64,000 bases of DNA from a virus (IMGVR_UViG_3300020213_000001), one strand, 5' to 3'; shown: positions 23,817-36,468, numbered from the stretch's first letter. Notes: generated by a model not told the origin, from the sequence alone. Made by a program: numbers and translations.

Positions 23817-24143
23817 TTAAAAAGAATAATCATGATAAGCGTTACGAATTCCAAAAGCTACTTTTGTGTATTCACCAGATTTGCGCCACTGACCGTCTTT
23901 TCTGATAGAAACTCGAATTAGCTGAGCATCTGTATTTGCGCTATATTCGTAATCCTGACTCTCACTCATACCGTTATTATCTATACGTTTCGCTGAATCC
24001 GGCTGAATCCACGCTGTCCGCCCTGATTTAGACACTCTAACTACGGTTGCAGCGTGTCGATCCGTATATAGATAGACTGTGGCACCATCACCTACTTCCG
24101 GGGCTTTACATTTAATCTTAAGGATGTTTGCAATTTGTGTCAT
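23817..24143 (-). CDS. Conserved phage hypothetical protein
   Basis: PEVGDGAT...TDRHAATV...R.AYHDYSF pattern; SD and upstream promoter. Confidence 0.65.
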   Translation of the reverse strand: MTQIANILKIKCKAPEVGDGATVYLYTDRHAATVVRVSKSGRTAWIQPDSAKRIDNNGMSESQDYEYSANTDAQLIRVSIRKDGQWRKSGEYTKVAFGIRNAYHDYSF

Positions 24144-24262
24144 AAAATCTCCTTAAACACACAATACCACATGGGAGGGTTTGTTGCAAGCTTATTGTTT
24201 ATCCCCAGAAAATCCCGTTCAGGCCCTTGGCAACTAGAAACTCATTGAATGTATGATCCATA

Positions 24263-24907
24263 CTACACCTTGCTAGTAGCACTCAGTACCCTGGCTATCC
24301 ATTTTTCAATTTGTGAAATAGATACCGGTGCATAGTTGTTTGCAGCCACACCAACGTCATATTGTCGTCCAAGTTCGCGTTTTTTATCGTTGTGGGGCCC
24401 GGAGTGTATGTGACCAGATAAATGGAATTGTCCTTCGTCCGCCACGCTATATTTACGATTCTTAATGTCACCGTGCCAGCATTCGTCACCTGTTGAATTT
24501 CTCATACCGTTGGTGTCTTCTCTAAACACGCCGGCCAATGGGCAATGACTCATTGTAATTCTATTCTCACCTAAATAGATAGTTGCGCCGTGCATTACAA
24601 CATCAAACCCCATTTCGTAGCAACTATTGTAGCCACGGTCATGGTTCCCCACTACTAGAACTTTAACCCCGTTCATTTGTGTAACCACTTCTCTAGTTAA
24701 ACTACTACTACCTAGTCCAATATCACCGAGAAAGTAGCAAATACCTCTTTCAGGTACGGTTGCGTTGTAGTTACTAATAAGAACATCGTGCATGTGTTCC
24801 AGGTCCCTAAAGGGCCGCCTATCAAACTCCAGTACGCTTTTATGCCCGATATGTAGGTCTGAGGTGAAAAATGTAGGTTTGCGTACTTCAGAAGTCATGT
24901 TTCTCAC
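24263..24907 (-). CDS. Calcineurin-like metallophosphoesterase
   Basis: SDLHIGH, LGDI, GNHD, GHIH, DVGV. Confidence 0.9.
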   Translation of the reverse strand: MRNMTSEVRKPTFFTSDLHIGHKSVLEFDRRPFRDLEHMHDVLISNYNATVPERGICYFLGDIGLGSSSLTREVVTQMNGVKVLVVGNHDRGYNSCYEMGFDVVMHGATIYLGENRITMSHCPLAGVFREDTNGMRNSTGDECWHGDIKNRKYSVADEGQFHLSGHIHSGPHNDKKRELGRQYDVGVAANNYAPVSISQIEKWIARVLSATSKV

Positions 24908-25127
24908 CCTGATATTTTAGCCGTTCTAAACTAATACGCTCTCCTTCACCATTCTTCAAAATAAATCCACCATCGCGCATGTCAATACGAAGCTCAATAT
25001 ATTTACATTCAGAATTTTTAAACCACTGCCAACCATCAGGGTTATCCCCCGTAGCAGTTTGAATGAAATCAAACACACCCTGTAGATTAGTATTCCATAC
25101 GTTGTCAGGTTTTAAATCTTTTTCCAT
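24888..25127 (-). CDS. Hypothetical protein
   Basis: 79 aa ORF abutting upstream gene. Confidence 0.55.
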   Translation of the reverse strand: MEKDLKPDNVWNTNLQGVFDFIQTATGDNPDGWQWFKNSECKYIELRIDMRDGGFILKNGEGERISLERLKYQGEKHDF

Positions 25128-25322
25128 TCAAAGCTCTCCGATGAATACGTTTTCGATGTAAAATAATGACGTGGCCGGACCTTCAAGCCAGCATCCGAAG
25201 TCCTCATCAAAATGGCAGAAGGCTGCGGTACCATTGGTTGAATGTTTAATGACGAACAAATAGTTGTCCTTGGGCACATACCAGAACCCTTCACGCGGGC
25301 GCAATGTTTGGTCATCTTTCAT
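25128..25322 (-). CDS. Hypothetical protein
   Basis: 64 aa ORF in GC-rich island. Confidence 0.45.
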   Translation of the reverse strand: MKDDQTLRPREGFWYVPKDNYLFVIKHSTNGTAAFCHFDEDFGCWLEGPATSLFYIENVFIGEL

Positions 25323-25500
25323 TCACCCCCCTTTCTTGCCGCAACTCGGTCCCTCCAATCCCCCACCCAATTACGACAGTTGCAATTATTGAACCCAGGG
25401 CGACACTAAGAATAATTGTTCCAGCCACTAAGTGGCGGGGTGTGGTGAAGATCATCGCCGCGATCGCAATAACTACTTCGATGATAAGAATTGTAATCAT
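25312..25500 (-). CDS. Small membrane protein
   Basis: Two hydrophobic helices; ATGA overlap with upstream ORF. Confidence 0.55.
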   Translation of the reverse strand: MITILIIEVVIAIAAMIFTTPRHLVAGTIILSVALGSIIATVVIGWGIGGTELRQERGVNER

Positions 25501-25619
25501 GTGCCGTCACCGCTGCCATCGCCGCCCTCGCCGCTGTGGCCATAGCCGCTACCGCTGCCGTAGCCACGGCCGTCGCCGTGCCCGATCATGCTGTGAGCGT
25601 CCTCTAGTTCTTTAGCCAT
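25497..25619 (-). CDS. Gly-rich repeat peptide, paralog 2 (40 aa)
   Basis: MAKELEDAHSMIGHGDGRGYGSGSGYGHSGEGGDGSGDGT; GGAGAG SD. Confidence 0.55.
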   Translation of the reverse strand: MAKELEDAHSMIGHGDGRGYGSGSGYGHSGEGGDGSGDGT

Positions 25620-25643
25620 TTGCTCTCCTTGGTTTTGCCGTGG

Positions 25644-25907
25644 TCATGCGCCGTCGCCGTAGCCGTCTCCATCGCCACCATCGCCGTCTCCATAACCATC
25701 CCCATCCCCATCTCCATCTCCGTCGCCTTCGCCGTCGCCGCTGTAGCCAAAGCCATAGCCGTCTCCAAAGCCGTCTCCGTAGCCGCCAAAGCCGTCTCCG
25801 CTGCCGTCGCCGTAGCGGTCGCCGTCGTCTCCGTAGCCGCGAAAGCCACTGCCCTTGCCGTCGCCGCGGCCGACAGCGCTGTAAGCGTTGTCTAGCTCTT
25901 TGGCCAC
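25644..25907 (-). CDS. Gly/Asp/Tyr-rich (GDGYG) repeat protein, paralog 1
   Basis: MAKELDNAYSAVG then (G-D/Y)n repeats. Confidence 0.6.
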   Translation of the reverse strand: MAKELDNAYSAVGRGDGKGSGFRGYGDDGDRYGDGSGDGFGGYGDGFGDGYGFGYSGDGEGDGDGDGDGDGYGDGDGGDGDGYGDGA

Positions 25908-26218
25908 TTGCTCTCCTCACAATCCAGCACAAGAACCTCGGCCCCCCGGTGAAAACGGCATGTGCCTGCGGGTTCCAAAATTGTGTCGTTGAGGGGGCCG
26001 CTGCTCGCCAGTTCGCCCAGGCCTTTGGTCGTGCCCCACCGGCGGATCACTGAAGAATCGAGTAACAAGCACTCGTCTCCCTCGCGCGAGTATGTGCCCA
26101 CGAGTACCCAGCCGCGCTGTAGCACTACAATTTTTCTACCCGTCGGTGACTGTGTGGGCGCAGGTGCGGATTTCTGCTGGAAGACCATCTCAATAATCGC
26201 TTTCTGAAACTCGTTCAT
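25892..26218 (-). CDS. DUF6948-like phage protein
   Basis: IVVLQRGWVLVG...VIRRWGTTKGLGELA..GP pattern (family name from recall). Confidence 0.65.
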   Translation of the reverse strand: MNEFQKAIIEMVFQQKSAPAPTQSPTGRKIVVLQRGWVLVGTYSREGDECLLLDSSVIRRWGTTKGLGELASSGPLNDTILEPAGTCRFHRGAEVLVLDCEESKWPKS

Positions 26219-26503: not shown

Positions 26504-26848
26504 TTATAGCTTCTCATAGTTTTTTTCAATGGCGTCTGCTATCTTATTGAAACTAGTAATAGCACGATCGTTTAAATTAATTAGACTAGTTTCACCATCA
26601 ACCTTCGAACCGTAACAACTAACCATTCCAGCCCACTCCATTACACTGTTTGGAAGGTGTGCAGACATTTCATCAAACCTACTAACATCGCGACTGCTAT
26701 CGTAGTCACAAACACCCTCAACCAGTGCTAGGTTGCACAGTACGCCCAAACAACAATTTGTCCCATCTTTCTCTAAGTTATTAAAACCTTGTTTAAACTC
26801 TCCAGACCTAAGAGCATCTACCCACATATCAGCAATTTGTTTTTTCAT
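26504..26848 (-). CDS. Conserved phage hypothetical protein
   Basis: WVDALRSGEFKQG...CCLGVLC...LND..SF..IAD.IE pattern. Confidence 0.7.
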   Translation of the reverse strand: MKKQIADMWVDALRSGEFKQGFNNLEKDGTNCCLGVLCNLALVEGVCDYDSSRDVSRFDEMSAHLPNSVMEWAGMVSCYGSKVDGETSLINLNDRAITSFNKIADAIEKNYEKL

Positions 26849-27242
26849 AAGCCTTCCTTATTCTATAGGTTAAATCTTTAATAGCTACCTTAGGGTCATA
26901 TCCGTAATCTATAAACAGTTGTGAGCCTTTCCTTATGTTACTATTTGCCCAGTACTCCATGCATTTGTCCTTGTAATTGCAAGAGTAGTCTATATTGCTT
27001 TTTTCTTTATGGTTAAACAAACTACCAAACCCCAATGCCAGGCACTCTTTATTACCTTTCCAGATATATACGTATAGTTCTAAATACTTACCTGCGGTAT
27101 CTTCTTGTTCTAAATACTTACCTGCGGTATCTTCTTGTTCTAATATAATAATAGGACTAGACTCAATAAGCTCTCCAGCTTTTATGTCTTTATTAGCGTA
27201 AAGACCGCGCCCATATTTTTTAGTAGTTCTAATTTCAATCAC
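26829..27242 (-). CDS. SET-domain protein (putative protein-lysine methyltransferase)
   Basis: GRGLYANKDIKAGE, SLFNH, I.KG.QLFIDYG. Confidence 0.88.
   Translation of the reverse strand: MIEIRTTKKYGRGLYANKDIKAGELIESSPIIILEQEDTAGKYLEQEDTAGKYLELYVYIWKGNKECLALGFGSLFNHKEKSNIDYSCNYKDKCMEYWANSNIRKGSQLFIDYGYDPKVAIKDLTYRIRKAYEKTNC
27077..27143. repeat. Perfect 30-bp tandem duplication (LEQEDTAGKY x2) in SET gene
   Basis: GTTCTAAATACTTACCTGCGGTATCTTCTT repeated directly. Confidence 0.95.
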
Positions 27243-27261: not shown

Positions 27262-27341
27262 TGGTACGACATCAGAGAATCGAACCCTGATTTCAAGTGT
27301 TTATAAGACACTTCCGGTAAACCACCAGCCCGCCATGTCGC
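27262..27341 (-). tRNA. tRNA-Ile(UAU)
   Basis: Acceptor GCGACAT/ATGTCGT-A-CCA, anticodon arm AGTGT-CTTATAA-ACACT, T arm CAGGG-TTCGATT-CTCTG; atypical position 8 and D arm. Confidence 0.8.
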
Positions 27342-27454: not shown

Positions 27455-28423
27455 TTAGCTATTCCTAGTTCTTTTGCTTTTAGCGGCGACCTTTAGATCT
27501 GAAATCATCTTTTCCATTGTGCAATCCTCTGCATTTAAATCGTCACGAAAGCGGAAAAATGTAGGGTGGCGAAGTCTTGGTGGGCTGTTTTTTGTTTTTA
27601 AAACTTCCTGCGCCCAGACATCCAGAACTTTTCCTTCGTATTCATAAAAGTTTTTGCTCATTTTAATTCTTAACTCGTCGTCAAAGCCGGAGGCAAATCC
27701 CACTTCCACAAGGGAGCCATTCTGATATACCGAAAGCGCTAGTGAGCCAATCATTCCCTTGTACTTGTTGGTCCCCTCTTTCCAACCAGACACTACTACT
27801 GAAACGTCATAGGACTTCTTCATTTTTGACCAAAATTTTCCGTAACCCATTCGAATGTCTTTTATGATTAACCCTTCGCCTCCTGCTGCTACCACTTTAT
27901 TAAATTCTGCGGAGAATCCAGAAGTAATCCAAGGAATAGGCTTAACGAATTCGTTACCCATTTTTTTAACGACTGCTTCTAGTAATTTCCTGCGCTGCTC
28001 AAGTGGGAGATCTCTAACGTCTTTGCCCTGAAACATCATGATGTCGAAAACCATATAGGTTAGGTTTCCAAGTTCTTTCTGTTTACAAGACGCTTCTGCC
28101 GCGCCGGAGTTCATTATTGAATTAGTATTTAAAAAGTCGCTTGAAACTATTTCTCCATCAATCACAGTACCTTCTAGGCCCTCGTAATCAACCTTGGTGA
28201 TGTGTGGGATATTGTCAGTCTTGTCTACCAGCAAACCGTCAGACACAGAGCCGCGCCTAGAAAGAAGTGTATGTCCTGACTTTCTTCTTTCGTATGGGCA
28301 TGAGTCGAAATACATAACATATCGTGAGCCATCAATTTTTTCTTCAGCTATAAAATAAGGCTTATCAAAGTCTTCAGGAAGTTTTGCTGTACAACGGCTA
28401 GGGATACATAATTCTAATTTCAT
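27455..28423 (-). CDS. lig: ATP-dependent DNA ligase
   Basis: EEKIDGSR adenylation motif, IDGEIV, VFDI, EGLIIK, LRHPTFFRFRDD OB domain. Confidence 0.93.
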   Translation of the reverse strand: MKLELCIPSRCTAKLPEDFDKPYFIAEEKIDGSRYVMYFDSCPYERRKSGHTLLSRRGSVSDGLLVDKTDNIPHITKVDYEGLEGTVIDGEIVSSDFLNTNSIMNSGAAEASCKQKELGNLTYMVFDIMMFQGKDVRDLPLEQRRKLLEAVVKKMGNEFVKPIPWITSGFSAEFNKVVAAGGEGLIIKDIRMGYGKFWSKMKKSYDVSVVVSGWKEGTNKYKGMIGSLALSVYQNGSLVEVGFASGFDDELRIKMSKNFYEYEGKVLDVWAQEVLKTKNSPPRLRHPTFFRFRDDLNAEDCTMEKMISDLKVAAKSKRTRNS

Positions 28424-28514: not shown

Positions 28515-29105
28515 TTAAACCCCACCTATTACTTGGTTGAGAAATTTAAGATTCAAGGCTTGCTGTTTAAGCTTGGCAGCAATGTAAATAGCATCTTCAA
28601 CATCACTGGAAGCATTGGCGGCAGCAAAGGCAGCTTGGGCAGCACCTTCGACGGCATAGTGGGCAGCGGCGTTGGTAAAAAAGACATAGTCGGCATTAGT
28701 GGCAATGAATGCAATGGGGGAATCATCGGCAGCATCGCGGGTATAGCAGAAGGCAACACACTTCGCTTTTACACGCTTTTTAACCTCTAATATTTGAGCA
28801 TCTGTCAAGCTATCGAAATCATTAACAGTCTTAAGAAAATTGATGCAATTGCTAAGGCTCTTATCACCTTTATATTTTTCTTCAAAAATATGTACTACGC
28901 TTTCAATGCATAGCATTGCCCATTTAACTAGTTGATTCTTGGTTAATACCCTTTTTGCAACCCAAACTTTATCGTCGTAGTTGACATTAGGTAAGTACAG
29001 GAAATCACTAAAGCTTCCGTCAAAATCAGCATTGTAATTCAGAAAATGTTCATATCTGTCAGCACAAGGCTCTAGGTTTTTCAGTACTTCTTTATTGATT
29101 TGCAT
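28515..29105 (-). CDS. Imm5-like array paralog 1
   Basis: MQINKEVLKNLEPC...WAMLCIESVVHIFE...Ala-rich core...QQALNLKFL. Confidence 0.8.
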   Translation of the reverse strand: MQINKEVLKNLEPCADRYEHFLNYNADFDGSFSDFLYLPNVNYDDKVWVAKRVLTKNQLVKWAMLCIESVVHIFEEKYKGDKSLSNCINFLKTVNDFDSLTDAQILEVKKRVKAKCVAFCYTRDAADDSPIAFIATNADYVFFTNAAAHYAVEGAAQAAFAAANASSDVEDAIYIAAKLKQQALNLKFLNQVIGGV

Positions 29106-29116
29106 AAATATCCTGG

Positions 29117-29746
29117 TTAAGCACTGATTGCTTGTTTCAAAAACTGAAGGTTAAGGGCTTGCTGTTTAAGACTGGCAGCGGCAGCATCTTCACCGTAAAT
29201 GTCACAATAACCAAGGGTATCATCATAGGTAGCTTCGGCGGCGTAACACAAGACGTGGGAGGCAACATCGACAGCATAGGCGGCAGCATAGGAATCACAG
29301 TAGGAGACGTGGACAAGGGCGGCAACATGGGAAACATTGAGAGCGTGGGCAGCGTGGCCAACAAAGATGTCAGGGTCGGTAGAAGCACGGGCAACAGCAA
29401 GGGCGAGATCTCTGTGCTTTTTAAGCTCTAATGCTTGATCAATTGTCAAGTTATTAAAATCCTTAACTGTTTTAAGGTAATTGATACAATTAATAACATG
29501 TTTATAATCCGGGTGTTGTTCTTCAAAAATATGCACTACGCTTTCAGCGCATAGCGTTGCCCAGCTAATGGCTTGGTTCTTGTTTAATACCCTTTTTGCA
29601 ACCCAAATTTTATCGACATATTCAAGATTGGGTAATTCCATGAATTCGCTAAGACTTCCATCAAAATCAGCGTGATGTTTTAGAAAAACCTTATACCTGT
29701 AATAACAGGGTTTAAGGCTTTTCAAGAATTCTTTATTAATTTGCAT
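29117..29746 (-). CDS. Imm5-like array paralog 2
   Basis: Same architecture; start moved to MQINKE at 29746. Confidence 0.8.
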   Translation of the reverse strand: MQINKEFLKSLKPCYYRYKVFLKHHADFDGSLSEFMELPNLEYVDKIWVAKRVLNKNQAISWATLCAESVVHIFEEQHPDYKHVINCINYLKTVKDFNNLTIDQALELKKHRDLALAVARASTDPDIFVGHAAHALNVSHVAALVHVSYCDSYAAAYAVDVASHVLCYAAEATYDDTLGYCDIYGEDAAAASLKQQALNLQFLKQAISA

Positions 29747-29764
29747 AAATCCCTCTCTCAAGCC

Positions 29765-29793
29765 ATTATCCCATATAAGACTAAGCTTGTCAA
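29765..29793 (-). promoter_or_regulatory. Sigma70-type promoter before paralog 2
   Basis: TTGACA-17 nt-GATAAT. Confidence 0.65.
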
Positions 29794-29801
29794 GCTAAAT
29801 A

Positions 29802-30431
29802 CTAATTAATCACTTGCTTAAGAAACTGAAGATTTAAGGCTTCTTGATTTTCAAGAGCAGCAATTTTATTAGAATCACAGACGGCATGGGTGGCATAGGA
29901 AGCATAGATGGCAGCTTGGGCAGCATGGGCGGCATAGATGACAGCTTGGAAAGAGGTGGAGGCAAAGGTGGCAGAATGGGCGGCAGCATGGGCAGAGGTG
30001 GCGGCATAGTTGGCAGCATGGGCGGTGGCATTGGTAGAAAAGAGAGTAGCACTGGCGGCTGCATGGGCAGCATCGGTGGCAGCAGAGGTGGCTATTTTAT
30101 GCTTCTTAATCTCTAATGGTTGACAATTGATCAAGCGGTCGAAATCATTAATAGATTTAAGGTAGTTGATGCAATCACTAAGGCGCTTGTCATCTGGATA
30201 TTTTGCTTCAAACATATGTACAACACTTTCAGCGCATAGCGTTGCCCATTTAACGGCTTTATTTTTGTTTAAAATCTCCCTTGCAACCCAAATTTTATCG
30301 TCGTAGTTGACATTAGGTAAGTCAAGGAATTCACTAAAGCTTCCGTTAAACTCACCGTGATGTTTTATAAAATGCTCATACCTGTCGGTAAAAAGGTTAA
30401 TACTTTTCAAGAATTCTTTGTTAATTTGCAT
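29802..30431 (-). CDS. Imm5-like array paralog 3
   Basis: Same architecture, Ala/His/Thr-rich core. Confidence 0.8.
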   Translation of the reverse strand: MQINKEFLKSINLFTDRYEHFIKHHGEFNGSFSEFLDLPNVNYDDKIWVAREILNKNKAVKWATLCAESVVHMFEAKYPDDKRLSDCINYLKSINDFDRLINCQPLEIKKHKIATSAATDAAHAAASATLFSTNATAHAANYAATSAHAAAHSATFASTSFQAVIYAAHAAQAAIYASYATHAVCDSNKIAALENQEALNLQFLKQVIN

Positions 30432-30459
30432 AATTCACTCCTGTTTTTACTCTTAACCC

Positions 30460-30488
30460 ATTGTTACATATAAGACTAAACTTGTCAA
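30460..30488 (-). promoter_or_regulatory. Promoter-like element before paralog 3
   Basis: TTGACA-17 nt-AACAAT, homologous to other array spacers. Confidence 0.5.
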
Positions 30489-30498
30489 TATAATTCTA

Positions 30499-31152
30499 CT
30501 AATTAATCACTTGTTTTAGAAACTTAATATTTAAGGCTTCTTGACTTTCTTGAGCAGCAATTTTATTAGAATCACTAGCATCGGTGGTGGCATAGAAGGC
30601 AGCTTGGACAGCATAGCACTCAGTATCGGCGACATCAACATCGATGTCATAGGCAGCAAGGGTGGCATAGGCGGCTTCACGGACAGCGGCACGGACAGCG
30701 GCACCGACAGCATCGGCGGCACCGGCAGCATAGGGGGCACGGGAACAATAGGCGGTAAGAGAGACAGCATAGGGGCCACCAGCGGCAACGAAACAAGCAG
30801 CTCGGGAGGCTTCTTCATGTCTCTTAATCTCTGATGCTTGATCATTTGTCAAATTATCAAAATCCTTAACTGTTTTAAGGTAGCTAATGCAATCACTAAG
30901 ACTCTGGTTATCAGGGTATTCTTTCTCAAAAATATGAACAACGCTTTCAGCGCATAGCGTTGCCCACTTAACAGCTTGATTCTTGGTTAAAACTCTCCTT
31001 GCAATCCAGATTTTATCGACATATTCAAGATTGGGTAGGTCCAGGAAATCATTAAGACTTCCGCTAAACTCACCGTGATGTTCTAGGAAATGCTTATACC
31101 TGTTGTCGCAAGGGTTTAGGCTTTTCAATACGTCTTTGTTGATCTTCATCAT
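30499..31152 (-). CDS. Imm5-like array paralog 4
   Basis: MMKINKDVLKSLNPC...; start moved to 31152. Confidence 0.8.
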   Translation of the reverse strand: MMKINKDVLKSLNPCDNRYKHFLEHHGEFSGSLNDFLDLPNLEYVDKIWIARRVLTKNQAVKWATLCAESVVHIFEKEYPDNQSLSDCISYLKTVKDFDNLTNDQASEIKRHEEASRAACFVAAGGPYAVSLTAYCSRAPYAAGAADAVGAAVRAAVREAAYATLAAYDIDVDVADTECYAVQAAFYATTDASDSNKIAAQESQEALNIKFLKQVIN

Positions 31153-31161
31153 CTTTCCCTC

Positions 31162-31190
31162 ATTATCACATATAATACCAGACATGTCAA
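31162..31190 (-). promoter_or_regulatory. Sigma70-type promoter before paralog 4
   Basis: TTGACA-17 nt-GATAAT. Confidence 0.65.
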
Positions 31191-31200
31191 TATAATTCCA

Positions 31201-31857
31201 CTAATTAATCACTTGTTTAAGAAACTTAATGTTAAGAGCTTGTTGGTTATGCTTGGAAGCATCATCAATAGAATCCCGATCATCATAGGTGGCAGCATAG
31301 GTGGCATAGTCGGCAGCATAGTCGGCAGCATAGCTGGTAGCATAGGTGGCAACATCGACAGCATAGCGTACTTCACGAGCGGCAGCAAAGACGGCATAGT
31401 AGGCAGCACGAGCAGCATTGGTGGCACCGATGGCGGCGATGGCGGCACAACGGACAGCATAGGCAGCATCAGCGGCAGCTTCGATGGCAAAGCGGGCAGC
31501 ATGGACAGCTCGGGCATCACTTATATGTCTCTTAATCTCTGATGCTTGATCAACTGTCAAGTTATCGAAATCATTAACTGTTTTAAGGTAGTTGATGCAA
31601 TCTCTAATGCATCTTTCATCCGGGTATTCTTTTTCAAAAACATGTACTACGCTTTCAGCACAAAGAATTGCCCAGTTAATGGCTTGATTCCTTGTTAAAA
31701 CTCTCCCTGCAACCCAGATTTTATCATTGTAGTCAAGATTAGGTAAGTCAAGGAATTCACTAAAACTACCGCTAAAATCAGCGTGACGCTCTAGAAAATG
31801 CCTATATCTGTCAACACAAGGCTCTAGGTTTTTCAGTACTTCTTTGTTAATTTGCAT
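31201..31857 (-). CDS. Imm5-like array paralog 5
   Basis: Same architecture; YAAD 12-bp repeats. Confidence 0.8.
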   Translation of the reverse strand: MQINKEVLKNLEPCVDRYRHFLERHADFSGSFSEFLDLPNLDYNDKIWVAGRVLTRNQAINWAILCAESVVHVFEKEYPDERCIRDCINYLKTVNDFDNLTVDQASEIKRHISDARAVHAARFAIEAAADAAYAVRCAAIAAIGATNAARAAYYAVFAAAREVRYAVDVATYATSYAADYAADYATYAATYDDRDSIDDASKHNQQALNIKFLKQVIN

Positions 31858-31866
31858 CTTTCCCTC

Positions 31867-31895
31867 ATTGTTACATATAACCCTAAGCTTGTCAA
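31867..31895 (-). promoter_or_regulatory. Promoter-like element before paralog 5
   Basis: TTGACA-17 nt-AACAAT. Confidence 0.5.
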
Positions 31896-31898
31896 CCT

Positions 31899-32477
31899 TT
31901 ACAAACTACATGCCATTCTCAAAAACTGAATGTTAAGCTCTTGCTGGTTATTCCCGGCAGCGTCAGCATCTTCACCGGTATCAGCGGCTGCAAGGAGGGC
32001 AGCATAGACGGCATAGGAGGCAGAACGGGCGGCATAGTGGAAGGCATAATTGGCTGCATAGTTGACAGCATAGAGGGCATAATAGGCAGTATAGAGGGCA
32101 TAGTGGACAGCACTGGCGACATAGTTGACTCCGCTAATATCTTCATGTTTTTTTATTTCCCACTTTTCAGTATCAGTTAAGTTATTGAAATCCTTAATAG
32201 ACTTAAGGAAATTGATACATTTGCTAAGACGTTTATTGCCTGGATAATTAGCCTCAAAAATATACATAACACTTTCGGCACAGAGAATAGCCCAGCTAAC
32301 AGCTTGATTTTTAGTTAAAACCTTTTCTGCAATCAAAACTTTATCTTCATAACTAATAGTACCTAGGTCCAGGAATTCAATAAAATTACCATCAAAATCA
32401 GAGTGGTGTTCTAGAAAATGCTTATATCTATCATCACAAGGATTTAGGCTTTTCAAGAATTCTTTATTGATTTGCAT
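31899..32477 (-). CDS. Imm5-like array paralog 6
   Basis: Same architecture, Tyr-rich core. Confidence 0.8.
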   Translation of the reverse strand: MQINKEFLKSLNPCDDRYKHFLEHHSDFDGNFIEFLDLGTISYEDKVLIAEKVLTKNQAVSWAILCAESVMYIFEANYPGNKRLSKCINFLKSIKDFNNLTDTEKWEIKKHEDISGVNYVASAVHYALYTAYYALYAVNYAANYAFHYAARSASYAVYAALLAAADTGEDADAAGNNQQELNIQFLRMACSL

Positions 32478-32489
32478 ATGGAGTCCTTT

Positions 32490-33161
32490 TCAAACACTAG
32501 TTACTTGTTTAAGAAACTGAAGGTTAAGAGCTTGTTGGCTATACTTGGCAGCATAATTAATAGAATCCCGATCATCGTAGGTGGCAGCATAGTTGGTAGC
32601 AGAGGTGGCAGCATAGTTGGTAGCAGAGGTGGCAGCAGAGGTGGCATAGCGTGCTTCACGAGCGGCAGCACCGGCAGCATAGATGGCAGCTTGGACAGCA
32701 TTGGCGGCACCAGAGGCGGCATAGGCGGCACAGCGGACAGCATAGGCAGCATTGGCGGCGGCATAGGTGGCATTGGTGGCATAGACGGTGGCATTGGCAG
32801 AAAAGAAAGCAGCATTGGCGGCCATTCCATGCTTCTTAATCTCTAATGCCTGGGCATTTGTCAAGTTATTAAAATCATTAATAGATTTAAGGTAGCTGAT
32901 GCAATCACTAAGACGTTTATCGTCAGGACGCTTATCTTCAAAAATATGCACAACACTGTCAACACAAAGAACTGACCATTTAACTAGTTGATTCTTGGTT
33001 AAAACTCTCACAGCAACCCAGATTTTATCTTCATAGTCAAGATTAGGTAAGTCCATGAATTCGCTAAAGCTTCCGTTAAACTCACCGTGGTGTTTTAGAA
33101 AATGCTTATATCTATCAGTGCAAGGGTTAAGGCTTTTGAGTAATTCTTTATTGATTTGCAT
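32490..33161 (-). CDS. Imm5-like array paralog 7
   Basis: Same architecture; 24-bp ATSATNYA tandem repeat. Confidence 0.8.
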   Translation of the reverse strand: MQINKELLKSLNPCTDRYKHFLKHHGEFNGSFSEFMDLPNLDYEDKIWVAVRVLTKNQLVKWSVLCVDSVVHIFEDKRPDDKRLSDCISYLKSINDFNNLTNAQALEIKKHGMAANAAFFSANATVYATNATYAAANAAYAVRCAAYAASGAANAVQAAIYAAGAAAREARYATSAATSATNYAATSATNYAATYDDRDSINYAAKYSQQALNLQFLKQVTSV

Positions 33162-33170
33162 AAAAGCTTC

Positions 33171-33677
33171 CTAATACTTATTACTATTTATACCACTTCT
33201 AATAACTATATCAATTTCCTTGCGACAATAGCGAGTTACGTTTTCAAAAACCCTTATTTTTCCATCCATGAAGCTTTCTAGAGCAGTTAACATGTCAATT
33301 CTGTCTTGAGCAGATACATAGTTAATCTGACGCTGCAAAAAAGCCTCTCGAACGTGAGTGCTGTCTTTCATCTTACTTTCTTTCAAAAACAAGGGATATA
33401 GATCAAGAATAGTCTCTGACTTGGCTTCCAATAGGGCTTTTTTGGCTTTGGTTATCTCATACCCTATAAGACTCAGATGCTTCCTAGCTTGTCTATATCC
33501 CTCGTTAAATGTGTATTCAAGTTCAGAATAGGTCGCAGGGTTTACTACCTTTGCCTCAATCAATCTGTGTTCAGCCTCTCTAATAGAGCTGATATCAAGA
33601 CGTACTTCTGGCGTATTACCGAACGCTGGAATGGTTAGCTCTGCACGTTCGGTGTAATTAGAAGGTAGTGTTTGCAT
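33171..33677 (-). CDS. Helical protein, possibly UvsY-like recombination mediator
   Basis: 168 aa helical ORF directly after SSB; function is a positional inference only. Confidence 0.4.
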   Translation of the reverse strand: MQTLPSNYTERAELTIPAFGNTPEVRLDISSIREAEHRLIEAKVVNPATYSELEYTFNEGYRQARKHLSLIGYEITKAKKALLEAKSETILDLYPLFLKESKMKDSTHVREAFLQRQINYVSAQDRIDMLTALESFMDGKIRVFENVTRYCRKEIDIVIRSGINSNKY

Positions 33678-34756
33678 TATCCCTCAAGAGATTTCAAGAA
33701 ATCTTCATCACTCAAGCTATTAAGATCTTCCGCTGCCGGTGGAGCATCTTTCTTGGGAGTGTTTAGGACTTCTATTTTAGCCTTAGTGGCAGCTTTAGCT
33801 TCTAGGGCAGCTTTAGCTTCTAGGGCAGCCTTAGCTTCTAGGGCAGCTTTAGCCTTGCTTTCTGCGAGTGCCTGAGCCGCCTTGACGTAAGTATCTTCAG
33901 AATGATTAGACTGTTCTTCATCATCACCATTGTCTGAAGGTGTAGATCCATCTGAGTCTCCTAGGATTCGCTCCAAAACAATCGCGCCTTCCTGTTCGCT
34001 ACGCTCGTAAGCAGCTACCATTTCAGCCACTTGTTCAGGATTGGGCATAGGATACATAGTGCTAAGCTCATAGGCCTCATCTGCTAGACGAGATAGAATG
34101 GCGGGAGTAAGAATGTGAGGCTCTGATTTTTCAACAATGCCGTATTCTGCTGTTTTTACCTTTGTTTTAGATTCTGTTACTTGGTAAGCAGTGTCCCTGT
34201 CCATTCCAGAACGGTTGAAGTTAATAAAGCGTCCGTCTTCAACCGAAAGCGGGTCTACACCCTCTCCCTGAAGTTGTTTAACCAGTGCTTTAAATGCATT
34301 CATTGCACGAGAGCCAAGCTTTAGAAGACCGATCTTACCGGAGGAATCCATGCCATTTGCATGGTGTTTGCTATCAACGTTGAAACGCTTAGTAGACTCT
34401 TCTAGATCTTTCAATTGCTTTTTAAGAGACTCAGGGATGGGCGCTTTAGCTTCAAATAGCTGCCTGGCTTGTTTTTTAGCCTCATCTTTCTGAATCTTAA
34501 GACCTTCGGCTCGGTTATAGGCCGCACAGTCCCTTTCTACCATTTTACTCCTGAAGTTAACGTCACGAGGTGAAACGAAAGGGCGCTGCCTGCCTTTTGT
34601 GTCCTTATAACCCCATACAACGCGATAGTAGACACTCCAATAACCCTTGTCTGCTAGTTTACCCATAGGAGGTAGGACTCGGAATAGGTTATCCCCGTCT
34701 TTAAATTTAAACACTTCTTTTTTGTCACCTGAATACCTTGCTTTGCCGACTTTCAT
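33677..34756 (-). CDS. Single-stranded DNA-binding protein (gp32-like)
   Basis: FKFKDGDNLFRVLPP N-terminus, DPLSVEDGRF, acidic tail SDEDFLKSLEG. Confidence 0.7.
   Translation of the reverse strand: MKVGKARYSGDKKEVFKFKDGDNLFRVLPPMGKLADKGYWSVYYRVVWGYKDTKGRQRPFVSPRDVNFRSKMVERDCAAYNRAEGLKIQKDEAKKQARQLFEAKAPIPESLKKQLKDLEESTKRFNVDSKHHANGMDSSGKIGLLKLGSRAMNAFKALVKQLQGEGVDPLSVEDGRFINFNRSGMDRDTAYQVTESKTKVKTAEYGIVEKSEPHILTPAILSRLADEAYELSTMYPMPNPEQVAEMVAAYERSEQEGAIVLERILGDSDGSTPSDNGDDEEQSNHSEDTYVKAAQALAESKAKAALEAKAALEAKAALEAKAATKAKIEVLNTPKKDAPPAAEDLNSLSDEDFLKSLEG
33788..33854. repeat. 18-bp tandem repeat (AALEAK x3) in SSB linker
   Basis: GGCAGCTTTAGCTTCTAG repeats. Confidence 0.9.
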
Positions 34757-35511: not shown

Positions 35512-35780
35512 AATTCCCCAATTTTGAAATATTTCCTTACCTTATACTCAGTATTAAAATAAACCTTAGCTGTTTTTAAATCAGAAACTCCGTCAAAAGT
35601 ATTTGGAAAGATTTTATGAGTAGAAAACTTCCCACCCATGTACCTTACATGTAAATACAGAACAGTGTTATCAAGACTAGCAGACTCAATCAAGGTCAGA
35701 CGCTCGTTTACTGTTTTTTCTCTTACAATTTTAGTTTGACTAAAAAAATCAATCATATTTGTCCTATTTGATATTACCAC
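35508..35780 (-). CDS. Hypothetical protein
   Basis: Coupled ORF. Confidence 0.5.
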   Translation of the reverse strand: MVISNRTNMIDFFSQTKIVREKTVNERLTLIESASLDNTVLYLHVRYMGGKFSTHKIFPNTFDGVSDLKTAKVYFNTEYKVRKYFKIGEL

Positions 35781-36468
35781 GTTTTAATATTTCTGCCATT
35801 ATCTGCGCAGTGGCTTGACTACTCCCTGAAAGCGCCCTTACACCTGGAATTTCAGGATCAACTAGGAGTCCAGATGCTTTATCTGTAACGATAGATCCGT
35901 AGTTAGATCCAAGATAAGCTCTAACTACATGGAAGTTTTCGCCAGGATATTCCTTTTTATAGCAAGCTGGATAGTAACCGCCATGTGTGTCTAGGTTTAT
36001 TCCGTCGTTTCCAGAGGCTACGGTTAGTGTCATGCCTTTTTTCAAAAACCCAAATAGATAAGATTTTTCCCTAGATTCGTAGGCATTTCCGCCTAGACTT
36101 AGGTTTAAATACTTTATTTGGGGATCTGAGTCAATATACTCCAGTGCCTTGTAATACGAGTTGGTATTTTCTATGATCGAGTCTTCGTTTTTGTAAAACT
36201 TAATGCTCACAATGCAGTGAGTTTTAGGGTTAATACCCTTAGATATAATCCCAACAATGTTAGAGCCGTGACCGTGGTTATCTTCTGTTTGTCCTAGTGT
36301 GTAGTTGATAACACCGTTCCTGCACATGTAGGGGCTTTTGTCTATGCTTTTAATCACACCCGTATCAATAACGGCTACTTTGATACGGGTTTCAAGACTT
36401 TCGCTTGTTGCCACCGTTTCGCAGCAGATAAGAAGAAGTGTAGAAAGTATGTATTTTAGACTGTTCAT
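35764..36468 (-). CDS. Exported S8 (subtilisin-like) serine peptidase
   Basis: VAVIDTG, HGHGSNIVGII, NLSLGG, VASGN, SGSSQATA; N-terminal signal-like segment. Confidence 0.85.
   Translation of the reverse strand: MNSLKYILSTLLLICCETVATSESLETRIKVAVIDTGVIKSIDKSPYMCRNGVINYTLGQTEDNHGHGSNIVGIISKGINPKTHCIVSIKFYKNEDSIIENTNSYYKALEYIDSDPQIKYLNLSLGGNAYESREKSYLFGFLKKGMTLTVASGNDGINLDTHGGYYPACYKKEYPGENFHVVRAYLGSNYGSIVTDKASGLLVDPEIPGVRALSGSSQATAQIMAEILKRGNIK

What the first reader, a model, noticed from the sequence alone, without database searches (positions are those of the whole stretch)
28515..33161. Tandem array of seven Imm5-like paralogs with a fixed scaffold and hypervariable Ala/Tyr core
Seen: seven adjacent 190-225 aa genes share an ~110 aa N-terminal scaffold (MQINKE..PC.DRY.HFL...DKIWVA...WA.LCAESVVHIFE...EIKKH) and a short C-terminal cap (QQALNLQFLKQVI). 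The 60-95 aa between them differs in length and sequence in every copy. Knowledge (from recall): the W A.CAE.V..IFE..P.D.R pattern resembles Imm5-like immunity domains. Inference: a diversified repertoire of binders, such as anti-defence proteins, antitoxin or immunity mimics, or superinfection factors, built like an accordion next to ligase, SSB and a possible recombination mediator. This is the best candidate for an undescribed system in the window.
Basis: partly seen in the sequence, partly recalled or inferred. Interest (0 to 1): 0.88.

Follow-up and report, generated by a model that had tools for sequence, protein, structure and literature searches.

The report
Phage array of Imm5-like immunity paralogs
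A large phage carries seven neighbouring copies of a helical protein that folds like a bacterial toxin-immunity protein; each copy has a different alanine-rich middle part written almost only in codons ending in C or T, so it is probably a set of toxin or defence blockers, though no target is known.

Summary
Seven intact minus-strand genes (192-223 aa) lie at 28515-33161. Each has a 111-aa conserved N-terminal scaffold, a 66-97 aa Ala/Tyr-rich core and a conserved C-terminal helix.

The Imm5-like recall is correct. Three of the seven pass Pfam's Imm5_like cut-off, and 107 of 144 relatives match the family. Two AlphaFold models (pLDDT 82 and 95) both best match SsdAI, the proven immunity protein of a DYW-clade deaminase toxin (Z 11.9 and 12.3; next unrelated fold 6.4). 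They match DUF416 about equally well.

This clade is large (1025 clusters) and almost entirely phage-borne. No toxin gene lies nearby.

The cores are in-frame heptad-like repeats that form long helices. They are not hypermutating: copies 1-4 are identical, or differ by one scaffold residue, wherever they are present on five related contigs. Diversity comes from 3-4 aa repeat indels, chimeric recombination between paralogs, and copy-number change (9 versus 7).

One feature is unexplained: 91% of core codons end in C or T. This holds family-wide (94% versus 60% in scaffolds).

Best reading (about 0.5): an early-expressed phage "polyimmunity" array that neutralises toxic effector domains. First-stage notes of this scan report more arrays of the family elsewhere in this genome; I could not check them.

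The parts
28515..29105 (-). Copy 1, 196 aa, core 69 aa. It lies 11 nt after copy 2 and has no promoter of its own.
   Evidence: Imm5_like 27.6 bits, above the cut-off of 25. The protein is identical on five other contigs.
29117..29746 (-). Copy 2, 209 aa from the ATG, core 83 aa.
   Evidence: Imm5_like 33.2 bits. 78 of 83 core codons are NNY.
29765..29793 (-). Sigma-70-like promoter upstream of copy 2: TTGACA, 17 nt, GATAAT, with a TG extension (11 of 12 matches).
   Evidence: gap sequence.
29802..30431 (-). Copy 3, 209 aa, core 84 aa.
   Evidence: Imm5_like 23.4 bits, just below the cut-off.
30460..30488 (-). Promoter-like site upstream of copy 3: TTGACA, 17 nt, AACAAT, with TG.
30499..31152 (-). 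Copy 4, 217 aa from the MMKINK start (228 aa from the ATG at 31185), core 91 aa.
   Evidence: Imm5_like 23.7 bits. A +3-aa core variant occurs in L009 and L010.
31162..31190 (-). Promoter-like site upstream of copy 4: TTGACA, 17 nt, GATAAT, with TG. It overlaps the upstream ATG at 31185, which favours the 31152 start.
31201..31857 (-). Copy 5, 218 aa, core 93 aa.
   Evidence: Imm5_like 25.2 bits. AF2 model: pLDDT 81.6, pTM 0.77. A +4-aa core variant occurs in L007 and L009.
31867..31895 (-). Promoter-like site upstream of copy 5: TTGACA, 17 nt, AACAAT, with TG.
31899..32477 (-). Copy 6, 192 aa, core 66 aa (17% Tyr). It lies 12 nt after copy 7.
   Evidence: AF2 model: pLDDT 95.2, pTM 0.90. The gene at the same position in L007 is a chimera with its breakpoint inside the core.
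32490..33161 (-). Copy 7, 223 aa, core 97 aa, containing a 24-nt repeat in 2.8 copies. It lies 9 nt after ORF 33171-33677.
   Evidence: Absent from this position in L007; present in L014.
27455..28423 (-). ATP-dependent DNA ligase, the fixed downstream boundary of the array.
   Evidence: phrog_114, E 4.5e-44. It holds the same position in L007-L011.
33171..33677 (-). 168-aa ORF of unknown function, the upstream boundary of the array in this genome.
   Evidence: No hit in Pfam, PHROGs or NCBIfam. The flank at this position in L007 is different.

Best explanation
The locus is a phage-borne equivalent of a bacterial polyimmunity locus: seven paralogous, cytoplasmic, all-helical proteins of the Imm5/Imm5_like superfamily with an SsdAI-like fold.

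Shown:
- Each protein has a conserved N-terminal domain, including the family's W-x-x-x-C-A-E-S-V...F-E...P-x-D-x-R motif, and a conserved C-terminal helix.
- Between them lies a pair or trio of long antiparallel helices. One face is alanine, which allows tight packing. The other positions carry mostly Tyr, Asp, Asn, Thr, Ser and His, and differ in every copy.
- All seven genes are kept under purifying selection.

Inferred:
- Each copy binds and blocks a different toxic effector domain. The target could be a nucleic-acid deaminase or another polymorphic-toxin or abortive-infection effector, made by the host or injected by neighbouring cells. Blocking it would keep the infected cell alive long enough for replication.
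- The genes are transcribed by host RNA polymerase early in infection. Four of them have their own near-consensus sigma-70 promoter, and the array sits among replication genes.

How the repertoire changes (shown by comparison with related contigs):
- slippage of short in-frame repeat units in the core;
- homologous recombination between paralogs through the conserved flanks, with breakpoints also inside cores;
- gain and loss of whole promoter-plus-gene cassettes.
It does not change by targeted hypermutation.
For: Family:
- Imm5_like hits on all seven copies, 21.4-33.2 bits, three above the cut-off.
- 107 of 144 relatives match Imm5_like and 37 match Imm5.
- The nearest ESM Atlas clusters are named Imm5_like and are 88-100% viral.
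- The top BFVD match is an 'Imm-5-like domain-containing protein' of an uncultured phage (TM 0.64).

Fold:
- Two independent models both rank 7jtu_B (SsdAI) first: Z 11.9 over 158 residues and Z 12.3 over 153 of 193 residues.
- For the high-confidence model the next unrelated chain scores 6.4. Foldseek also ranks 7jtu_B first (probability 0.94).

Literature:
- Imm5 was defined as the predicted immunity protein of DYW-clade deaminase toxins and CdiA-CT toxins, and as a scaffold likely to bind several toxin types (PMC3239186, PMC3482391).
- SsdA is a DYW-subgroup toxin and SsdAI is its all-helical immunity protein (PMC7901873).
- Polyimmunity loci and polyimmunity proteins usually lack adjacent toxins.
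- A 2410-aa protein with 11 Imm5_like modules lies in a phage-like contig.

Selection:
- Scaffold dN/dS is 0.09-0.36 at dS 0.6-2.6.

Expression signals:
- TTGACA, 17 nt, GATAAT or AACAAT with a TG extension, in all four intergenic gaps longer than 40 nt.

Dynamics:
- TRF periods are multiples of three: 9, 12, 21, 24, 42, 51.
- Indel variants of 3 and 4 aa occur in cores.
- Some gene pairs have identical scaffolds but cores 58% identical. Others have scaffolds 80-86% identical but cores 100% identical.
- One orthologue is a chimera.
- Related contigs carry 9 copies against 7, and another carries 11 copies within 16 kb.
Against: - No toxin, deaminase or other candidate partner lies next to the array, either in the window or in any related locus examined.
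- The host is unknown.
- Four of the seven copies fall below Pfam's cut-off.
- Sequence searches against solved structures do not recover SsdAI.
- DUF416, whose function is unknown, matches the fold as well as SsdAI does (Z 11.6-12.2).
- The VIA tool warns that helical bundles can reach Z of about 13 without being related.
- No member of this phage clade has been tested experimentally in any paper I could find.
- Expression is inferred only from promoter-like sequences. The overall number of promoter-like hits in the region is no higher than in shuffled sequence (20 against 20.7); only their placement is telling.
Confidence: 0.5

Rival explanations
1. The proteins specifically inhibit nucleic-acid cytosine deaminases, either DYW/BaDTF2-type toxins or deaminase-based anti-phage effectors. 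This is a narrower form of the best explanation. Each paralog would match a different deaminase variant and protect replicating phage DNA from C-to-U damage.
For: The best structural match for both models is SsdAI, the immunity protein of the ssDNA deaminase SsdA. Imm5 was originally linked to DYW deaminase toxins. The array sits among DNA replication genes (ligase, gp32-like SSB, polymerase), where ssDNA is exposed. In related contigs, arrays of the family lie within a few kb of a small CDA-type deaminase gene.
Against: Imm5 is also linked to CdiA-CT and was proposed to be a multi-toxin scaffold. The match to SsdAI is structural only, at 7-9% identity. In SsdAI the contact is made by a loop-rich protrusion, and I could not map that onto the Ala-rich helices. 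No deaminase homologue is present in the window. The phage deaminase seen in relatives looks like an ordinary nucleotide-metabolism enzyme.
Confidence: 0.2
2. The proteins form a helical scaffold family whose role has nothing to do with toxin neutralisation, for example an adaptor, chaperone or regulator of host or phage machinery, as DUF416/YjaG-like proteins may be. The Ala-rich helices would be structural spacers whose sequence drifts freely.
For: DUF416 structures match as well as SsdAI (Z 11.6-12.2). No toxin neighbour is found anywhere. The cores show elevated dN/dS of about 1.5 nominal, against 0.25 for scaffolds (my own sum over eight pairs). That is compatible with relaxed constraint rather than positive selection once the third-position constraint is allowed for.
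Against: A single housekeeping role would not explain maintaining 7 diverged paralogs here (9-11 on related contigs), several with their own promoter, nor the cassette turnover between closely related phages. Free drift would not keep third codon positions 94% pyrimidine across the family. The sequence family is Imm5_like, not DUF416; no DUF416 Pfam hit appeared at E up to 1.
Confidence: 0.2
3. The cores are targets of a programmed diversification mechanism, either DGR-like mutagenic retrohoming or another hypermutator. The constant C-terminal cap would act as the homing signal.
For: The layout is constant, then variable, then a short constant 3' end. The cores are written almost only in NNY codons, as DGR variable regions are. 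The amino-acid alphabet is the one NNY allows.
Against: Cores of copies 1-4 are identical, letter for letter, on contigs from several independent samples, apart from one 3-aa indel variant of copy 4. Cores differ in length and in the positions of their Ala codons, which one template could not produce. No core-like template sequence exists outside the array in the window. No ORF of 150 aa or more carries a reverse-transcriptase Y-x-DD motif. Only 64 kb of the roughly 155-kb genome was searched.
Confidence: 0.03
4. The array is non-functional repetitive DNA, or a set of decaying duplicates.
For: The core is of low complexity, and open 'shadow' frames occur on both strands.
Against: All seven frames are intact. 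Scaffold dN/dS is 0.09-0.36 although synonymous divergence is near saturation. The fold prediction is very confident (pLDDT 95). Protein sequences are identical across samples. The shadow ORFs follow automatically from NNY coding.
Confidence: 0.02

Closest known systems
Imm5 / Imm5_like (Pfam PF14423, PF21805): predicted immunity proteins of polymorphic toxin systems (Iyer 2011, Zhang 2012)
   Same: They share the central motif region and the Ala-rich helices. Pfam matches run from about residue 55 to 162-171. The fold is mostly alpha-helical. Both tend to be multiplied in tandem or fused.
   Different: This clade adds a conserved N-terminal extension of about 50 aa (nearly invariant P-C at residues 13-14) and a conserved C-terminal cap helix. 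It is almost entirely phage-borne (contexts). It is never next to a toxin gene in the loci examined. Individual scores straddle the Pfam cut-off.
SsdAI (PDB 7JTU chain B), immunity protein of the T6SS ssDNA deaminase toxin SsdA of Pseudomonas syringae
   Same: It is the best structural match for both models: Z 11.9 and 12.3, 153-158 aligned residues out of 193, spanning model residues 29 to the C-terminus. It is all-helical and of similar size. Its toxin belongs to the DYW subgroup, with which Imm5 was first associated.
   Different: Sequence identity is 7-9%, and profile searches against solved structures do not detect it. SsdAI is encoded next to its toxin in a bacterial chromosome. Its binding surface is a loop-rich protrusion, whereas here the variable part is a set of long Ala-rich helices.
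Homogeneous polyimmunity loci and polyimmunity proteins (Zhang et al. 2012, PMC3482391)
   Same: Both are tandem arrays of non-identical paralogous immunity genes with no toxin gene in the operon. The fused multi-module form also exists for this family (P0174, 11 modules).
   Different: Those were described in bacterial chromosomes. Here the array is in a virulent-type large phage, among replication genes, with a promoter on most cassettes. First-stage notes of this scan report further arrays elsewhere in the genome (unchecked).
esaG and tipC strings of T7SS immunity genes, which evolve by recombination between tandem paralogues (Garrett et al. 2022, PMC9484751)
   Same: Conserved 5' and 3' blocks flank a variable middle. 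Recombination between paralogs produces chimeras and changes copy number between close strains (compared with the abstract).
   Different: The protein family and fold are unrelated, and the setting is bacterial rather than phage. No repeat-slippage component and no codon-position rule is mentioned in that paper's abstract; I did not read the full text.
DUF416 (YjaG-like) proteins, PDB 2Q9R and 3F7C
   Same: They match the fold as well as SsdAI does (Z 11.6-12.2, 142-155 aligned residues).
   Different: There was no Pfam DUF416 hit at E up to 1. The function of DUF416 is unknown, so the match adds nothing on mechanism.
DGR variable regions and antibody CDR codon bias (from my own knowledge)
   Same: In each case a variable binding segment is encoded in a codon subset that cannot mutate to a stop at the varied positions (AAY in DGR templates).
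   Different: There is no reverse transcriptase, no template repeat, no adenine-specific pattern and no population-level hypervariation here. This is an analogy of coding logic only.

Membership tests
Pfam Imm5_like (PF21805) | The whole-protein score reaches the curated gathering cut-off of 25 bits. | tested here: inconclusive
   copies 1, 2 and 5 pass (27.6, 33.2, 25.2 bits). Copies 3, 4, 6 and 7 fall just short (23.4, 23.7, 22.4, 21.4 bits; E 5e-5 to 2e-4).
Pfam Imm5_like (PF21805) | Relatives of the query, taken as a family, match the model. | tested here: met
   107 of 144 aligned relatives match at E<=1e-3 (best 7.7e-13). 37 also match Imm5 and 11 match DUF6931; the nearest Atlas clusters carry PF21805 in 64-90% of members.
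Imm5 (PF14423) as defined by Iyer 2011 / Zhang 2012 | A mostly alpha-helical fold. | tested here: met
   all helices apart from two 3-residue strands.
Imm5 (PF14423) as defined by Iyer 2011 / Zhang 2012 | Immediate gene neighbourhood with a polymorphic toxin (DYW deaminase, CdiA-CT). | tested here: not met
   No toxin-like gene lies next to the array in the window or in any related locus examined. None of the seven copies hits PF14423 itself at E up to 1.
SsdAI-like immunity fold (PDB 7JTU_B) | Structural superposition over most of the chain, standing clear of unrelated folds. | tested here: met
   Z 12.3, rmsd 4.0, 153 of 193 residues; the next unrelated chain scores 6.4. Z 11.9, rmsd 3.7, 158 residues. 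DUF416 ties with it, and helical bundles can give middling Z by chance.
SsdAI-like immunity fold (PDB 7JTU_B) | Binds and neutralises a cognate deaminase toxin. | not testable with these tools
   No candidate partner sequence is known and the host is unidentified.
Polyimmunity locus (Zhang et al. 2012) | Tandem non-identical paralogs of one immunity family, in one orientation, with no toxin gene in the cluster. | tested here: met
   seven co-oriented paralogs with gaps of 11-67 nt and no other gene between them.
Diversity-generating retroelement target | A reverse transcriptase and a template repeat nearby, with adenine-specific differences and variation between individuals. | tested here: not met
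   No core-like DNA outside the array. No Y-x-DD ORF. Cores are identical across samples. Only this 64-kb window was searched.
DNA-mimic anti-restriction proteins (Ocr/ArdA-like) | A strongly acidic protein with a surface array of carboxylates. | tested here: not met
   pI 5.1-8.2, net charge +2 to -8.

The most novel reading that the evidence does not exclude
The variable core may be a naturally encoded, stop-proof 'library' segment. Because almost every codon ends in C or T, no change at codon positions 1 or 2 can create a stop, and every C/T change at position 3 is silent. Combined with in-frame repeat slippage and recombination between many promoter-bearing cassettes, this would give phages a retroelement-free way to evolve new helical binding surfaces quickly. 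Those surfaces are rich in Tyr, Asp, Asn, His, Ser and Thr, like minimalist synthetic binders. The family-wide third-position rule would then be a signature of second-order selection for evolvability, not a by-product of how the repeats arose.
Probability: 0.2. Interest if true: 0.85.

Novelty: new variant of a known kind. Interest (0 to 1): 0.62.

Why it matters
If these proteins are toxin or defence-effector blockers, phages can carry large, fast-changing collections of 'immunity' genes. Until now such collections have been viewed as a bacterial adaptation to warfare between bacteria. The family is abundant (about 1000 sequence clusters, almost all viral) and wholly uncharacterised, so it could hold many inhibitors of deaminases and other toxic enzymes. 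Some of those enzymes are used as base editors, so specific inhibitors could be useful tools. The codon rule in the core is a clean, quantifiable anomaly. It may be an example of coding that favours evolvability outside antibodies and retroelement systems.

Tried and rejected
- Cultured phages. Megablast of the locus and tblastn of copy 7 against 50,697 phage records found no match. PHROG families 38757, 21347 and 18326 do match weakly.
- Whole genome. None is held for this window.
- Bacterial genomes. The pattern-based scan of genome contigs found no confirmed relative. The 144-sequence alignment was too diverse to seed a scan. I therefore cannot say how common the clade is in cellular genomes.
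- Metagenome scan. It gave 30 loci but not the window's own contig.
- Exact look-ups of P0005 and P0021, family members on a 154,932-nt contig, found no record. The further arrays reported by other first-stage notes could not be verified.
There is therefore no read pile-up and no expression evidence.
- Sequence search of solved structures with the family profile gave nothing significant (best E 0.025, a homing endonuclease).
- NCBIfam and PADLOC gave no hits.
- DGR, DNA mimicry and junk DNA were considered and rejected (see rival explanations and membership test).
- Antisense and +1-frame 'shadow ORFs' of 68-124 aa across every core were judged to be automatic consequences of NNY coding, not genes.
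- The test of whether third-position constraint or recent ancestry explains the low synonymous divergence of cores was underpowered. Four-fold sites changed at 17 of 274 positions in scaffolds and 8 of 389 in cores (p 0.007), but the transition/transversion split was uninformative.
- E. coli Chi sites: one reverse-strand match inside the array (30776) among six in the window. This is not informative.
- The 'ExpertTwins' preprint that mentions Imm5 is irrelevant; the term is a seat label there.
- Complex prediction was not used, because no candidate partner exists.

Full report
**1. The observation**

Seven intact ORFs lie head to tail on the minus strand between 28515 and 33161, separated by gaps of 11-67 nt. 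The aligned proteins share a 111-residue N-terminal part and a cap of about 15 residues at the C-terminus. The stretch between them measures 66-97 residues and cannot be aligned between copies.

An HMM built from the scaffolds finds exactly these seven copies in the 64-kb window. Scaffolds are 59-74% identical in protein. Synonymous divergence is near saturation (dS 0.6-2.6) and dN/dS is 0.09-0.36. These are therefore old duplicates, each kept by purifying selection. They are not a recent amplification and not decaying copies.

**2. Family**

- Pfam Imm5_like (PF21805) is the top hit for all seven copies, at 21.4-33.2 bits against a cut-off of 25. Three copies pass.
- A profile of the scaffold, searched against 1.84 billion representative proteins, finds 1025 clusters at E<=1e-3 and 343 at E<=1e-10.
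- Of 144 aligned relatives, 107 match Imm5_like, 37 match Imm5 proper and 11 match DUF6931.
- NCBIfam and PADLOC have nothing. PHROGs has only families of unknown function.

The clade is overwhelmingly viral.
- The nearest ESM Atlas clusters are 88-100% viruses.
- The best BFVD structural matches are proteins of uncultured phages.
- Every genomic context I fetched for close or distant members looks like phage DNA: runs of small ORFs, homing endonucleases, replication genes.
- No cultured phage in INPHARED matched.

The window itself is part of a large myovirus-like genome. It carries a baseplate J-like protein, a portal protein, a ribonucleotide reductase, a DNA polymerase, a gp32-like SSB, an SbcC-like protein, a helicase and a ligase.

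**3. Structure**

- AlphaFold2 with the family alignment gives pLDDT 81.6 and pTM 0.77 for copy 5, and pLDDT 95.2 and pTM 0.90 for copy 6.
- Both models show a compact N-terminal helical domain with two tiny strands. After it come long antiparallel helices made from the Ala-rich core, and then the cap helix.
- Alanine recurs with a period of 3.5-3.7 residues. One face of each core helix is therefore alanine, and the variable residues fall on the other positions.
- An exhaustive structural comparison ranks the same three chains first for both models. These are SsdAI (7jtu_B; Z 11.9 and 12.3) and two DUF416 proteins (Z 11.6-12.2). Each covers residues of about 29-35 to the C-terminus.
- For the confident model the next chain scores only 6.4. 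Foldseek agrees on the order but is weak.
- Sequence profiles do not reach SsdAI.

SsdAI is the experimentally validated immunity protein of SsdA, a T6SS ssDNA cytosine deaminase of the DYW subgroup (PMC7901873). Imm5 was defined by Aravind's group as the predicted immunity protein of DYW-clade deaminase toxins and of CdiA-CT toxins. They proposed it as a scaffold able to bind several structurally distinct toxins (PMC3239186, PMC3482391).

So a sequence family assignment, a structural match and the literature converge on 'toxin-immunity-type binder'. DUF416, of unknown function, is an equally good structural match. That, and the tool's caution about helical bundles, keeps this short of proof.

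**4. What the 'hypervariable core' is**

It is not peculiar to this array. Relatives across the family have the same layout: scaffold, then an Ala-rich stretch of variable length, then the cap. In some the core is an almost perfect repeat of four- to seven-residue units made of Ala plus Tyr, Asp, Thr, Val or Asn.

In the window, Tandem Repeats Finder detects degenerate repeats inside every core. Almost all periods are multiples of three, among them 9, 12, 21, 24, 42 and 51 nt.

The cores are not mutating rapidly in the sampled population.
- On five contigs from other samples that share the ligase flank, copies 1-4 are identical to the window's, or differ by one scaffold residue, wherever they are present.
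- The core differences seen are a 3-aa indel in copy 4 and a 4-aa indel in copy 5.
- The distal end differs wholesale. L007 is collinear with the window at 97% identity from the ligase up to copy 6. It then continues with three different paralogs where the window has copy 7, giving 9 copies against 7. L014 supports the window's arrangement.
- The L007 gene at the copy-6 position is a chimera. Its last 40 or so residues are identical to copy 6, including the end of the core. The rest is only about 70% identical.
- Across the wider set, some gene pairs have identical scaffolds but cores 58% identical. Others have scaffolds 80-86% identical but cores 100% identical, with no synonymous difference.

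Scaffold and core therefore have separate histories, which is the signature of recombination between paralogs. The esaG and tipC immunity-gene strings evolve the same way (PMC9484751).

A DGR-type mechanism is rejected for four reasons:
- cores are identical across samples;
- core lengths differ;
- no template-like DNA occurs elsewhere in the window;
- no RT-like ORF is present.

**5. An unexplained codon rule**

I followed a lead from another first-stage note.
- 532 of 583 core codons end in C or T. Only 397 are expected from the amino-acid composition and the codon usage of 21 other genes in the window.
- Alanine is GCY in 196 of 202 cases, against 59-63% in the scaffolds and in other genes. 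Val, Thr, Ser and Leu four-fold codons behave the same way.
- The rule holds in 71 distinct family members, including distant ones. In cores, 3149 of 3348 four-fold codons end in a pyrimidine (94%). In the scaffolds of the same genes the figure is 60%.
- It appears more weakly in the Ala-rich parts of the 11-module protein P0174 (84% against 63%).
- It is absent from Ala-rich stretches of unrelated window genes (53 of 95).
- One divergent member, whose core is made of repeats of four to six Ala followed by Gly-Trp, uses purine-ending codons instead.

The rule has three consequences.
- No substitution at codon positions 1 or 2 can create a stop codon.
- C/T changes at position 3 are always silent.
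- The antisense same-frame and the +1 sense frame stay open, which explains the shadow ORFs.

Three causes are possible: repeated regeneration of cores from GCY-GCY-NAY units, second-order selection for a stop-free mutational neighbourhood, or a nucleic-acid-level constraint. My tests could not separate them. Four-fold sites changed at 2.1% in cores against 6.2% in scaffolds (p 0.007), but recombination confounds that comparison.

**6. Expression signals**

All four intergenic gaps longer than 40 nt, upstream of copies 2-5, contain TTGACA, a 17-nt spacer, a TG extension and GATAAT or AACAAT, followed by a purine-rich ribosome-binding site. Copies 1, 6 and 7 sit 9-12 nt behind the preceding gene and would be co-transcribed with it.

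The count of promoter-like hits in the region is no higher than in shuffled sequence. The argument therefore rests on position and on the near-identical architecture of the four sites. Early transcription by host RNA polymerase is an inference. No read data could be obtained.

**7. Interpretation**

The most likely reading (about 0.5) is a phage polyimmunity-type array. It would be a set of early proteins with a common SsdAI/Imm5 scaffold. Their variable helical surfaces would each neutralise a different toxic effector domain of the host or of neighbouring bacteria. Deaminases are one specific possibility (about 0.2 within that). The repertoire would be renewed by repeat slippage, recombination between paralogs and cassette turnover.

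The main rival (about 0.2) is a helical scaffold protein with an unrelated role. DGR-like diversification and junk DNA are effectively excluded.

**8. Novelty**

The domain family, the idea of polyimmunity loci, and recombination-driven evolution of immunity strings are all known. Four things are new:
- the family's main home appears to be phages;
- phages multiply it heavily, with 7 copies here, 9-11 on related contigs, and an 11-module fusion elsewhere;
- most cassettes carry their own promoter;
- there is a family-wide third-position codon rule.

Other first-stage notes of this scan report further arrays in this same genome: seven plus one upstream of the window and twelve downstream. I could not verify them. 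Four family members listed on a 154,932-nt contig are not encoded in the window, which is consistent with those notes.

Noticed in passing
window 28533-32846, + strand and other minus-strand frames: Every core is covered by open 'shadow' frames. The antisense frames read as Gly/Ser/Ile-rich (85-124 aa) and the +1 sense frames as Leu/Pro/Met-rich (68-109 aa). They follow automatically from NNY coding and are probably not genes.
   Followed up: partly
window 27262-27341 (-): A tRNA-Ile gene with anticodon TAT, which reads AUA, lies between the ligase and the SET-domain gene. A promoter-like site (TTGACT, 17 nt, TATACT) sits just upstream at 27376-27348.
   Followed up: no
window 26829-27242 (-): A phage-encoded SET-domain protein (PF00856, 50.8 bits) with an internal duplicated 10-residue segment. 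In L007 and L010 the orthologue is 127 aa instead of 137 aa, so the duplication is polymorphic.
   Followed up: no
window 33677-34756 (-): The gp32-like SSB (26.2 bits against a cut-off of 26.8) ends in a tandem A-K-A-A-L-E repeat before an acidic tail.
   Followed up: no
window 24001-26000: A local GC peak (0.49, against about 0.40 for the window), with overlapping Arg/His-rich spurious-looking ORFs on both strands around 25600-26200.
   Followed up: no
L044:6001-13233 (P0174) and L044:4484-5851: A 2410-aa protein made of 11 Imm5_like modules (263 bits) follows a 455-aa protein with the same domain, in a phage-like contig. This is a fused 'polyimmunity protein' form of the family.
   Followed up: partly
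L042:1171-1872 (+): A divergent member with a long N-terminal extension. Its core is made of repeats of four to six Ala followed by Gly-Trp, written in purine-ending codons (2 of 41 four-fold codons end in Y). It is the only clear exception to the NNY rule.
   Followed up: partly
L003:4448-4810 (-) and L006:2911-3273 (+): In related contigs, a 120-aa CDA/dCMP-deaminase-like gene with H-A-E and P-C-x-x-C motifs lies within a few kb of arrays of the family. No homologue is present in this window.
   Followed up: partly
L006:3800-16160: A related 41-kb contig carries at least 11 family copies on both strands within about 12 kb. Its flanks share no similarity with this window, so it probably corresponds to a different array of the same or a related phage.
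   Followed up: partly
window 35764-36468 (-): A 234-aa subtilisin-like protease with an N-terminal hydrophobic segment (phrog_3677, E 1.5e-11) lies between the DNA polymerase and the replication-accessory genes.
   Followed up: no
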